From the sequence record PZ445454.1: DNA of 64,000 nucleotides. One strand, 5' to 3'. The notes under the pieces are model-generated. The model searched no databases and was not told where the DNA came from. It saw only the letters and a list, made by a program, of their open reading frames with translations. Both the position numbers and the translations under genes were made by a program. This DNA comes from a phage. Below, in pieces: positions 60,524 to 60,603 of the stretch. Position 1 is the stretch's first letter. Each line of letters starts with the position of its first letter.

Positions 60524-60603
60524 ATGGGACGATGTTAAGACTCTAAGGCATGAGCAACGGCTTCCAACACCGTTTCAAAGGGGTTCAACTCCTCCGTCCC
60601 ATG
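60524..60603 (+). tRNA. tRNA, probably Trp (anticodon CCA); about 80 nt with an irregular D-region
   Basis: Perfect acceptor ATGGGAC/GTCCCAT, anticodon region AACGG-CTTCCAACA-CCGTT, T-loop GGTTCAACTCC. Confidence 0.45.

What the first reader, a model, noticed from the sequence alone, without database searches (positions are those of the whole stretch)
60524..60603. 80 nt tRNA with perfect acceptor stem but irregular D-region or 9 nt anticodon loop
The acceptor (ATGGGAC/GTCCCAT) and T-arm are canonical, but the body is about 7 nt too long. My best parse gives either a 9 nt anticodon loop CTTCCAACA or extra nucleotides before the D-stem. Extended anticodon loops are associated with frameshift suppression.
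Basis: seen in the sequence. Interest (0 to 1): 0.4.

Follow-up and report, generated by a model that had tools for sequence, protein, structure and literature searches.

The report
Unannotated odd-shaped phage tRNA-Trp gene
This is a real, conserved but never-annotated tryptophan tRNA gene of Felix O1-like phages that gene finders miss because it carries a fixed block of extra nucleotides between its acceptor stem and D-arm; there is no sign that it is a frameshift suppressor.

Summary
Window 60524-60603, plus an encoded CCA to 60606, is a tRNA-like gene inside a 25-tRNA array of a Felix O1-type phage. ARAGORN and the Rfam tRNA model both miss it.

It is the missing tRNA-Trp(CCA). It has anticodon CCA, U33, G73, A1-U72 and a TTCAACT T-loop. 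From G22 to A76 it is colinear with E. coli tRNA-Trp.

The 7 extra nucleotides all lie 5' of the D-loop. They comprise a near-invariant connector (GAUGUUAA instead of 2 nt) and a bulged A in the D-stem. Deleting 6 nt in silico makes ARAGORN call tRNA-Trp.

The "9-nt loop" is a 7-nt loop closed by a conserved non-Watson-Crick 31:39 pair. It is not an insertion, so frameshift suppression is not supported.

Twenty-one distinct homologues show 13 base pairs with compensatory changes, spread over all four helices. They come from Felixouna-, Moogle- and Suspvirus, Pectobacterium and Yersinia phages, and metagenomes. The element is as conserved as the canonical phage tRNAs, whereas its flanks are not.

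Neither the roughly 235 GenBank records holding it nor the papers I read report a tRNA here.

Most likely it is a functional, non-canonical tRNA-Trp, possibly with an 8/4 acceptor/T-stem fold. The role of the invariant connector is unknown.

The parts
60524..60606 (+). Whole gene: non-canonical tRNA-Trp(CCA), 80 nt to the discriminator plus an encoded CCA
   Evidence: Family covariance model R1 scores 109.5 bits. Covariation is shown. The element lies 13 nt upstream of tRNA-Ser (60620) and 142 nt downstream of tRNA-Arg (ends 60381).
60524..60530 (+). Acceptor stem 5' strand ATGGGAC (positions 1-7), pairing with 60596-60602
   Evidence: Paired in 20 of 21 homologues. 1:72 is A-U, G.U or G-C; 2:71 is U-A, C-G or G-C.
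60531..60538 (+). Expanded connector GATGTTAA (8 nt where canonical tRNAs have U8 and N9). G60531 can pair with C60595 as an eighth acceptor pair.
   Evidence: AUGUUAAGA is identical in 20 of 21 distinct homologues, including the remote L104. PC79-13 has ACGUUAAGA. RNAalifold leaves it unpaired and draws the G8-C65 pair. Deleting ATGTTA restores ARAGORN detection.
60539..60555 (+). D-arm: G(A)CTC / GAGC stem with bulged A60540, and loop TAAGGCAT containing the GG
   Evidence: Compensatory changes U-A/A-U/G-C at 60542:60553 and C-G/U-A/A-U at 60543:60552. G-C at 60539:60555 is invariant. GG in the loop is invariant.
60556..60574 (+). Anticodon arm: 26:44 pair plus 27-30:40-43, C31.A39 mismatch (60561, 60569), loop TTCCAAC (60562-60568), anticodon CCA at 60564-60566
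   Evidence: Four of five pairs show double changes. CCA and U33 are invariant. 31:39 is never Watson-Crick. The arm is colinear with E. coli tRNA-Trp.
60575..60595 (+). Variable region TCAA(A), then T-arm GGGG / TTCAACT / CCTC with unpaired A60579 and C60595
   Evidence: UCAAA is invariant. The T-loop is UUCRAHU. 50:64 shows G-C/U-A/A-U covariation. A49.C65 is never Watson-Crick.
60596..60606 (+). Acceptor 3' strand GTCCCAT, discriminator G73 (60603), encoded CCA end (60604-60606)
   Evidence: GCCA is invariant in all 21 homologues. The neighbouring tRNA-Arg (60305-60381) also ends in an encoded CCA, and ARAGORN coordinates run 3 nt past the Rfam matches for most tRNAs of the array.

Best explanation
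The element is a phage-encoded tRNA-Trp (anticodon CCA, reading UGG). It fills the only gap in the otherwise complete 20-amino-acid tRNA set of Felix O1-like phages.

I infer the following life cycle. It is transcribed with the tRNA array, cut at its 5' end by RNase P (the 12-bp acceptor/T coaxial stack is intact), charged by host TrpRS through G73, the CCA anticodon and the A1-U72 end, and used on the ribosome.

Its body departs from the cloverleaf in four conserved ways:
1. An 8-nt connector, GAUGUUAA, replaces the 2 nt between the acceptor and D stems.
2. The D-stem has a bulged A.
3. The 31:39 pair is non-Watson-Crick and is compensated by a Watson-Crick 26:44 pair.
4. An A49.C65 mismatch lets G8-C65 form, giving an 8-bp acceptor / 4-bp T-stem (8/4) arrangement with the same 12-bp stack length.

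Shown here: the gene exists, the fold is under selection, and it is homologous to tRNA-Trp. Inferred: expression, charging, use in translation, and any role of the invariant connector.
For: **The slot and the set.**
- ARAGORN finds tRNAs for 19 amino acids in the window. Only Trp is missing.
- The published Felix O1 tRNA analysis does not mention Trp (PMC3185647). Phage Sf14 is reported to cover 19 amino acids (PMC12482277).
- In wV8-type genomes the identical slot, after an identical 142-nt spacer, holds a different 71-nt tRNA-Trp(cca).
- phiEa21-4 has a 76-nt annotated tRNA-Trp and no 80-nt element in its tRNA region.
- In every genome or tRNA region examined here I found one Trp gene of one type and never two.

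**Homology to tRNA-Trp.**
- G22-A76 aligns to E. coli tRNA-Trp over 55 nt with no gaps and 36-38 identities. In most relatives the loop is CUCCAAA, as in E. coli.
- Outside the family, the best hit of the family model is the phiEa21-4 tRNA-Trp at 41.6 bits. It has the same C31.A39.

**Selection on the fold.**
- 13 pairs show compensatory changes across all four helices, with 98.6% of cells paired.
- The D-loop GG, T-loop UUCRA, U33, CCA anticodon, G73 and 3' CCA are invariant.

**Rate of change.**
- Felix O1 against Yersinia phage P778: 75.9% identity for this element, 57.7-79.2% for 14 canonical tRNAs, and 47.7% for the upstream spacer.
- BLAST against the Yersinia phage P778 matches only the element (query positions 145-218), not the flanking spacer. 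The Arno162 match likewise lies within the element.

**Cause of the missed call.**
- In-silico deletion of 6 nt yields an ARAGORN tRNA-Trp call.

**Not a coding region.**
- No ORF longer than 36 aa overlaps it.
Against: - There are no expression, processing or charging data.
- An 8-nt connector at positions 8-9 is not among the non-canonical translating tRNAs covered in the one review I read (PMC7609411). It could disturb the U8-A14 / 9-23-12 core.
- The allo-tRNA-like RNAs with a comparable extra loop could not be charged by E. coli synthetases in vitro (PMC7609411).
- U2-A71 departs from the G2-C71 that I recall as a minor E. coli Trp identity element.
- In three lineages the acceptor stem is imperfect: a bulge in Arno162 and P778, and two mismatches in L157. 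That is odd for a charged tRNA, even though their other helices still covary.
- The strict invariance of the connector sequence suggests a sequence-specific partner that simple decoding does not require.
Confidence: 0.6

Rival explanations
1. It is a tRNA-derived RNA that keeps the L-shape but works outside decoding. It could be a decoy, inhibitor or sensor-blocker for a host tRNA-targeting defence nuclease or another tRNA-binding protein. The invariant AUGUUAAGA connector would be the specific handle.
For: - The connector is sequence-invariant in 20 of 21 homologues while the stems drift freely.
- Acceptor stems are imperfect in Arno162, P778 and L157 although the other helices are maintained.
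- Both Trp alleles in this slot have abnormal D-regions: 80 nt with an insertion, and 71 nt with a reduced D-arm.
- The literature read here describes defence systems that cut tRNAs, including tRNA-Trp, and states that most Felixounavirus species tested were not restricted by retron Eco2 (PMC12916289). This is context only.
Against: - The features needed for charging and decoding are invariant: CCA anticodon, U33, purine 37, G73 and the 3' CCA.
- The element is mutually exclusive with other tRNA-Trp genes in the genomes examined.
- A decoy would not need the exact Trp anticodon loop of the host, CUCCAAA.
- No partner protein has been identified.
Confidence: 0.2
2. It is a functional tRNA-Trp whose altered D-region changes decoding, like the Hirsh suppressor (D-stem G24A, which lets tRNA-Trp read UGA). 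It would give low-level UGA read-through, or faster and looser UGG decoding, during infection.
For: - It is established that D-arm changes far from the anticodon in tRNA-Trp (G24A, A9C) alter A-site fidelity. This is recalled from memory.
- Both phage Trp alleles in this slot are altered precisely in the connector/D-arm region.
- Positions 32 and 38 change together, from C32/A38 to U32/C38, in the Felix O1 subtype.
Against: - TGA ends 13 of 51 long ORFs in the window, an ordinary share, and shows no avoidance.
- Position 24 is G paired to C11, not the Hirsh A24.
- No conserved TGA-interrupted gene was looked for or found.
Confidence: 0.08
3. It is a decaying pseudogene, a relic tRNA-Trp disabled by an insertion and carried along passively.
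For: - Gene finders reject it.
- The sister allele in wV8 is flagged as a pseudo tRNA in GenBank.
- There are mismatches at 31:39 and 49:65, and imperfect acceptors in three lineages.
Against: - 13 compensatory pairs are present.
- Its conservation equals or exceeds that of canonical tRNAs, while the flanks are randomised.
- The same 'defects' (connector, bulged A, 31:39 and 49:65 mismatches) are retained across genera and in a remote metagenomic lineage, L104. Decay would not preserve them.
Confidence: 0.07
4. It is a +1 frameshift-suppressor tRNA with an expanded 9-nt anticodon loop.
For: Thermodynamic and comparative folding draw a 5-bp stem and a 9-nt loop.
Against: - The anticodon arm has no extra nucleotide. 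There are 23 nt between the D and T stems, and no gap against E. coli tRNA-Trp.
- The extension is symmetric: one residue on each side, at positions 31 and 39.
- The inner loop is the standard CUCCAAA.
- As I recall, known natural suppressors have 8-nt loops with an added anticodon-side base.
Confidence: 0.03

Closest known systems
Escherichia coli tRNA-Trp(CCA) (trpT) and ordinary phage-encoded tRNA-Trp genes, e.g. Erwinia phage phiEa21-4 gt19
   Same: Shared features are the anticodon CCA, G73, A1-U72, G3-C70 and the D-stem 3' strand GAGC. In most relatives the loop is CUCCAAA. There is a 5-nt variable region and a TTCRA T-loop. G22-A76 is colinear. phiEa21-4 shares the C31.A39 mismatch.
   Different: The connector is 8 nt instead of 2, the D-stem has a bulged A, and 2:71 is U-A. 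There is an A49.C65 mismatch, 26:44 is Watson-Crick, and 31:39 is not. Standard tools do not detect it.
8/4 and 9/3 allo-tRNAs and allo-tRNA-like RNAs with an extra loop between the acceptor and D stems (Mukai et al. 2017, as summarised in PMC7609411)
   Same: Both have a possible 8-bp acceptor plus 4-bp T-stem, giving a 12-bp stack. G8-C65 is always pairable (U.G in L104), and 49:65 is never Watson-Crick. Both carry additional unpaired nucleotides between the acceptor and D stems.
   Different: Allo-tRNAs have long variable arms, Ser or Ala identity, and anticodons unrelated to their identity, and they occur in soil bacteria. This element has a 5-nt variable region, coherent Trp identity and anticodon, and sits in a lytic enterobacterial phage. 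The allo-like RNAs with the extra loop were not chargeable by E. coli enzymes.
wV8-type 71-nt tRNA-Trp allele of Felixounavirus (L001:1647-1717)
   Same: It occupies the same genomic slot after the same 142-nt spacer, with the same anticodon, G73 and encoded CCA. It is also abnormal in the D-region, and wV8's record flags it as a pseudo-tRNA.
   Different: Its sequence is unrelated at the nucleotide level. It has a reduced 3-bp D-arm instead of an expanded connector, a fully paired anticodon stem and a 5-bp T-stem. It is followed by an HNH endonuclease gene. ARAGORN detects it.
Frameshift-suppressor tRNAs with enlarged anticodon loops (sufD/sufB-type)
   Same: The only shared feature is that the loop is drawn with more than 7 nt.
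   Different: No nucleotide has been added to the anticodon arm. The extra 'loop' residues are the mismatched 31:39 pair.

Membership tests
Canonical tRNA (Rfam RF00005 / ARAGORN cloverleaf) | Reaches the detection threshold of standard tRNA models | tested here: not met
   ARAGORN makes no call. RF00005 gives no hit at E<=1 in the 6-kb search or at E<=10 on 116 nt. tRNA-Sec scores 16.9 bits against a gathering score of 47. After in-silico deletion of 6 nt, ARAGORN calls tRNA-Trp.
Canonical tRNA (Rfam RF00005 / ARAGORN cloverleaf) | Four helices of the cloverleaf maintained by covariation; 7-bp acceptor stem | tested here: met
   13 pairs show changes on both sides across the acceptor, D, anticodon and T helices, and 98.6% of cells pair. 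RNAalifold gives the same helices.
Canonical tRNA (Rfam RF00005 / ARAGORN cloverleaf) | Two-nucleotide connector (U8, N9) between the acceptor and D stems | tested here: not met
   The connector is 8 nt, GAUGUUAA, plus a bulged A. The 5' part is 28 nt against 21 nt in E. coli tRNA-Trp.
Canonical tRNA (Rfam RF00005 / ARAGORN cloverleaf) | Elbow and loop signatures: G18G19 in the D-loop, T54-Psi55-C56-R57-A58 in the T-loop, U33 and purine 37 | tested here: met
   GG, UUCRA, U33 and A37 are invariant in 21 homologues at the sequence level. Base modifications cannot be tested here.
Canonical tRNA (Rfam RF00005 / ARAGORN cloverleaf) | 5-bp anticodon stem with a 7-nt loop; 5-bp T-stem | tested here: inconclusive
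   The nucleotide counts are canonical: 23 nt from the D-stem to the T-stem. However, 31:39 and 49:65 are conserved mismatches, while 26:44 and possibly 8:65 pair instead.
tRNA-Trp isoacceptor (E. coli TrpRS identity set, recalled from Himeno et al. 1991) | Anticodon C34 C35 A36 and discriminator G73 | tested here: met
   Both are invariant in all 21 homologues.
tRNA-Trp isoacceptor (E. coli TrpRS identity set, recalled from Himeno et al. 1991) | A1-U72, G2-C71, G3-C70 | tested here: inconclusive
   The window has A1-U72 and G3-C70 but U2-A71. L104 has all three. Arno162 and P778 have G1-C72 and C2-G71.
tRNA-Trp isoacceptor (E. coli TrpRS identity set, recalled from Himeno et al. 1991) | Aminoacylation with tryptophan | not testable with these tools
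   This needs TrpRS charging assays or acid-gel Northern blots.
Frameshift-suppressor tRNA | An extra nucleotide inserted in the anticodon loop (8-nt loop, 4-base anticodon) | tested here: not met
   The anticodon arm aligns to E. coli tRNA-Trp without a gap, and the inner loop is CUCCAAA or UUCCAAC.
8/4 tRNASec-like / allo-tRNA | 8-bp acceptor stem plus 4-bp T-stem | tested here: inconclusive
   8:65 is G-C in 20 sequences and U.G in L104, a single double change. 49:65 is never Watson-Crick. RNAalifold draws the 8/4 form. One covarying sequence is not proof.
8/4 tRNASec-like / allo-tRNA | Long variable arm; 6-bp D-stem with a 4-nt loop | tested here: not met
   The variable region is 5 nt, UCAAA. 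The D-arm is 4 bp plus a bulge with an 8-nt loop in the window. Only L104 has 6 bp plus a bulge with a 4-nt loop.

The most novel reading that the evidence does not exclude
Felix O1-like phages may use, in ordinary bacterial translation, a class-I tRNA with a fifth structural element. [quoted passage not shown] On this reading the loop is not tolerated junk. It is a selected handle that either makes the phage tRNA-Trp invisible to, or inhibitory for, a host tRNA-targeting defence, or retunes decoding by tRNA-Trp. This would be a natural chargeable tRNA of non-canonical fold working with the E. coli/Salmonella machinery.
Probability: 0.25. Interest if true: 0.7.

Novelty: new variant of a known kind. 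Interest (0 to 1): 0.5.

Why it matters
**Annotation.** Felix O1 is a classical Salmonella typing phage. Papers on it and its relatives report tRNA sets that lack Trp. If this gene works, the set covers all 20 amino acids. That bears on the idea that large lytic phages carry full tRNA sets to stay independent of host tRNA pools, or of host tRNA cleavage.

[quoted passage not shown] A conserved, covarying tRNA-Trp with an 8-nt connector and a probable 8/4 stack would be a natural counter-example. It sits in a phage that grows on laboratory E. coli and Salmonella and can be tested directly.

**Practical.** Roughly 235 GenBank phage records lack this gene. Standard tRNA finders will keep missing it.

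Tried and rejected
- **Rfam.** A scan of the whole array and of the isolated element found no family near threshold.
- **Protein-coding explanation.** Only ORFs of 36 aa or fewer overlap the element, and they are not conserved. Rejected.
- **Frameshift-suppressor reading.** Rejected on nucleotide counts and colinearity with E. coli tRNA-Trp.
- **UGA recoding.** TGA ends 13 of 51 long ORFs, with no avoidance. This gives no support but does not exclude low-level read-through.
- **Alternative D-stem from the ancestral-looking GUU of the connector pairing with AGC.** Rejected because the partner column is U in the Moogle and Arno lineages. The CUC/GAG hairpin covaries instead.
- **Pseudoknot between connector AUG and the 3' end of the D-loop (CAU/UGU/UAU).** 95% of cells are pairable, but the changes are only on one side, and L104 and PC79-13 break the pairing. 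Inconclusive.
- **Two IMG/VR pattern scans.** They returned only Felix-like genomes plus random matches, with no further lineages.
- **One metagenome scan.** Most of the 120 hits were ordinary tRNA-Trp or tRNA-Gly genes preceded by GTTAAGA. Besides further close Felix-like copies, it yielded two minor new variants (L071, L096) and two clearly divergent members (L157, L104).
- **Literature searches.** I found no description of this gene.
- **Not run.** tRNAscan-SE was not available. Genome contigs was not scanned.

Full report
**Setting.** The window is a Felix O1-type myovirus genome. The 91 nt around the finding are 100% identical to Salmonella phage Felix O1, AF320576. Positions 58577-63556 form a plus-strand tRNA array. 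ARAGORN tRNAs there, covering every amino acid except tryptophan. The finding lies in the 238-nt gap between tRNA-Arg(UCU) (60305-60381) and tRNA-Ser(UGA) (60620-60709).

**Checking the observation.**
- The sequence at 60524-60603 is as described. It has a perfect 7-bp acceptor stem (ATGGGAC/GTCCCAT), discriminator G and a TTCAACT T-loop. An encoded CCA follows at 60604-60606; the neighbouring tRNA-Arg also ends in an encoded CCA.
- It is 80 nt to the discriminator, about 7 nt more than a class-I tRNA.
- One detail needs correcting. The T-stem has only four pairs plus an A49.C65 mismatch.
- Automated tools do not produce a canonical cloverleaf. ARAGORN skips it. Rfam RF00005 gives nothing even at E<=10 on the isolated stretch, and the best family is tRNA-Sec at 16.9 bits against a threshold of 47.
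- The minimum-free-energy fold is a cloverleaf with an 8-bp acceptor, a small D hairpin, a 5-bp anticodon stem with a 9-nt loop and a T hairpin. Its z-score is only -2.1.

**What it is.**
- The loop contains CCA, the Trp anticodon, and Trp is the amino acid missing from the array.
- E. coli tRNA-Trp was verified as 100% identical to the annotated, essentially single-copy gene in all 5,426 complete E. coli genomes.
- Against it, the element is colinear without any gap from G22 to A76: 55 nt with 36 identities, or 38 for the commonest Felixounavirus variant. The 5' part is 28 nt instead of 21.
- The anticodon arm therefore has no added nucleotide.
- In most relatives the inner loop is CUCCAAA, exactly the E. 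coli tRNA-Trp loop.
- All the excess sits between the acceptor stem and the D-loop. The connector is GAUGUUAA where canonical tRNAs have U8-N9, and one A bulges in the D-stem, G(A)CUC/GAGC.
- Deleting the six bases ATGTTA in silico makes ARAGORN call a 77-nt tRNA-Trp(cca) at default settings. The other edited versions are called at a relaxed threshold. The unedited sequence is never called as Trp.

**Relatives.**
- BLAST against 50,697 phage records finds the element at >=80% coverage in about 235 records. They include Felixounavirus, Mooglevirus and Suspvirus, plus Pectobacterium phages Arno162, Arno18 and Wc4, and Yersinia phage P778.
- In the rows listed, the annotation under the match is 'none' or a small hypothetical or flanking ORF, never a tRNA.
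- Against the Yersinia phage P778 only the element itself matches, not the surrounding spacer; the Arno162 match likewise lies within the element.
- About 27 records, mostly Felix-like genomes of the wV8 type, share the upstream 142-nt spacer but then carry a different gene. It is a 71-nt tRNA-Trp(cca) with a reduced D-arm, followed by an HNH endonuclease gene. GenBank annotates it as tRNA-OTHER/pseudo in wV8 and as tRNA-Trp in O157 typing phage 12.
- The more distant Erwinia phage phiEa21-4 has a 76-nt annotated tRNA-Trp elsewhere in its array and no 80-nt element. That gene also has GGC-CUCCAAA-ACC, meaning the same C31.A39 mismatch.
- Each genome or tRNA region I examined therefore has one Trp(CCA) gene, in one of three forms.
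- A metagenome pattern scan, checked with a covariance model built from the family (R1), added two divergent members.
  - L157 is syntenic (Arg-X-Ser) and scores 87.8 bits.
  - L104 sits in a different tRNA array between Glu and Phe and scores 63.7 bits.
- Two IMG/VR scans added nothing beyond Felix-like genomes.

**Selection on the fold.**
- On 21 distinct sequences, 98.6% of cells pair and 13 of 24 tested pairs show changes on both sides. No shuffle out of 500 reaches the observed values, and structures slid by 1-3 columns give essentially no covariation (the smaller set is).
- Every helix has compensatory pairs.

| Helix | Pair | Variants seen |
|---|---|---|
| Acceptor | 1:72 | A-U / G.U / G-C |
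| Acceptor | 2:71 | U-A / C-G / G-C |
| D-stem | 12:23 | U-A / A-U / G-C |
| D-stem | 13:22 | C-G / U-A / A-U |
| Anticodon stem | four of five pairs | double changes |
| T-stem | 50:64 | G-C / U-A / A-U |

- RNAalifold independently returns the same helices.
- The invariant positions are the ones a working tRNA needs: GG in the D-loop, UUCRA in the T-loop, U33, CCA, A37, G73 and the 3' CCA.
- Between Felix O1 and Yersinia phage P778 the element is 75.9% identical. That is the upper end of the 57.7-79.2% range for 14 canonical tRNAs with matching anticodons. The upstream 120 nt are 47.7% identical, which is roughly noise.
- No ORF above 36 aa overlaps the element.

**The conserved peculiarities.**
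1. *Connector.* AUGUUAAGA is identical in 20 of 21 variants, including the remote L104. PC79-13 has ACGUUAAGA.
2. *Position 31:39.* It is C.A, C.C or A.C and never Watson-Crick. Position 26:44 covaries as A-U, G.U or G-C. The stack from 26:44 to 31:39 keeps the canonical six layers.
3. *Position 49:65.* It is A.C (A.G in L104), while position 8 can always pair with 65: G-C, or U.G in L104. This, together with the RNAalifold consensus, suggests an 8-bp acceptor / 4-bp T-stem (8/4) arrangement with the standard 12-bp stack. It rests on a single covarying sequence, so I call it inconclusive.
4. *Possible pseudoknot.* The connector AUG and the 3' end of the D-loop (CAU, UGU or UAU) can pair in 95% of cells. 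The changes are only on one side, and two sequences break the pairing. This is also inconclusive.

**Points that do not fit.** The acceptor stem has a one-base bulge in Arno162 and P778, and two adjacent mismatches in L157. That does not sit comfortably with a charged tRNA. It is the main reason I keep a non-decoding rival alive.

**Mechanism.** My best explanation (about 0.6) is a functional tRNA-Trp. It would be co-transcribed with the array and processed by RNase P on the intact acceptor/T stack. Host TrpRS would charge it via the CCA anticodon, G73 and A1-U72, and it would read UGG, completing a 20-amino-acid phage tRNA set. The identity set is recalled from Himeno et al. 1991; U2-A71 deviates from it. 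The steps shown here are existence, homology to tRNA-Trp, and purifying selection on the fold and on decoding and charging signatures. The inferred steps are expression, processing, charging and ribosomal use.

**Rivals.**
- *A tRNA-shaped RNA with a non-decoding role* (about 0.2), for example a decoy or blocker of a tRNA-targeting defence, with the invariant connector as the handle.
- *A Hirsh-like change in decoding* (about 0.08). TGA ends 13 of 51 long ORFs with no avoidance, and position 24 is G, so nothing supports it yet.
- *A decaying pseudogene* (about 0.07). Covariation, and retention of the same 'defects' across genera, argue against it.
The canonical nucleotide count in the anticodon arm argues against it.

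**Comparison with what is known.**
- It works like, and is homologous to, tRNA-Trp. It fails the formal tests for a canonical tRNA (detection thresholds and the 2-nt connector).
- Those have long variable arms and anticodons that do not match their identity. The extra-loop forms could not be charged by E. coli enzymes. This element has a short variable region and coherent Trp identity.
- I found no description of this gene. The published Felix O1 tRNA analysis does not mention Trp (PMC3185647). A 2025 analysis of the Moogle-like phage Sf14, which carries a close homologue, reports 26 tRNAs for 19 amino acids (PMC12482277).

**Verdict.** The feature is a new structural variant of a known kind of gene: a phage tRNA. 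Interest is moderate (0.5). The gene is ordinary in its likely function, unusual in its architecture, missing from hundreds of annotations, and directly testable in a classical phage.

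Noticed in passing
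window 63384-63476 (+): A 93-nt tRNA with anticodon UCU ('Arg') and a long, class-II-like variable arm, U73 and an encoded CCA. It is a second UCU tRNA besides 60305-60381. Long variable arms normally mark Ser, Leu or Tyr tRNAs in bacteria, so its identity is unclear.
   Followed up: partly
L001:1416-1497 (phage wV8, NC_012749 about 27567-27648): In the slot where the window has tRNA-Arg(UCU), wV8 has a different 82-nt tRNA-like sequence. It has a CUUCUAA loop, no obvious D-arm and a long variable region. ARAGORN does not call it, and R1 gives only 15 bits. It may be another non-canonical allele.
   Followed up: partly
L001:1647-2136 (wV8), compared with window 60524-60619: The 71-nt tRNA-Trp allele always comes with an HNH endonuclease gene inserted between Trp and Ser. 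The divergence begins exactly at the 5' end of the Trp gene, after an identical 142-nt spacer. This looks like allele replacement by homing-endonuclease co-conversion. I recall T4 SegB in its tRNA cluster as a comparable case.
   Followed up: partly
window 60382-60523 (+): A 142-nt spacer is conserved in both allele types. It contains a hairpin, CATGTT-TTCCAG-AACATG, at about 60446-60463. It also has a weak sigma-70-like match, TTGAGA-17-AATTAT, at 60492-60520. TATAGT lies directly 5' of the tRNA (60518-60523), and A.AGT is conserved across genera.
   Followed up: no
window 59478-59528 (+): A weak partial Rfam tRNA hit of 22 bits, covering model positions 7-64, with a T-arm-like GAAGGTTCGATTCCTTC. 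It lies in the 427-nt gap between tRNA-Asp and tRNA-Lys and may be a tRNA remnant.
   Followed up: no
L119:1130-1199, L079:8212-8287, L112:3111-3185 (metagenome contigs): Other tRNA-Trp genes from metagenome contigs also have a non-Watson-Crick 31:39 pair flanking CUCCAAA (C.A or C.U), together with small D-arms; L119 sits in a dense tRNA array (12 tRNAs in about 1.1 kb). A mismatched 31:39 pair may recur in tRNA-Trp genes of such arrays beyond Ounavirinae.
   Followed up: no
window 60562 and 60568: The Felix O1 subtype has U32 and C38 (loop UUCCAAC), whereas most relatives have C32 and A38 (CUCCAAA). The two positions change together. Losing A38 would remove the A36-A37-A38 motif that I recall MiaA using for i6A37.
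   Followed up: no
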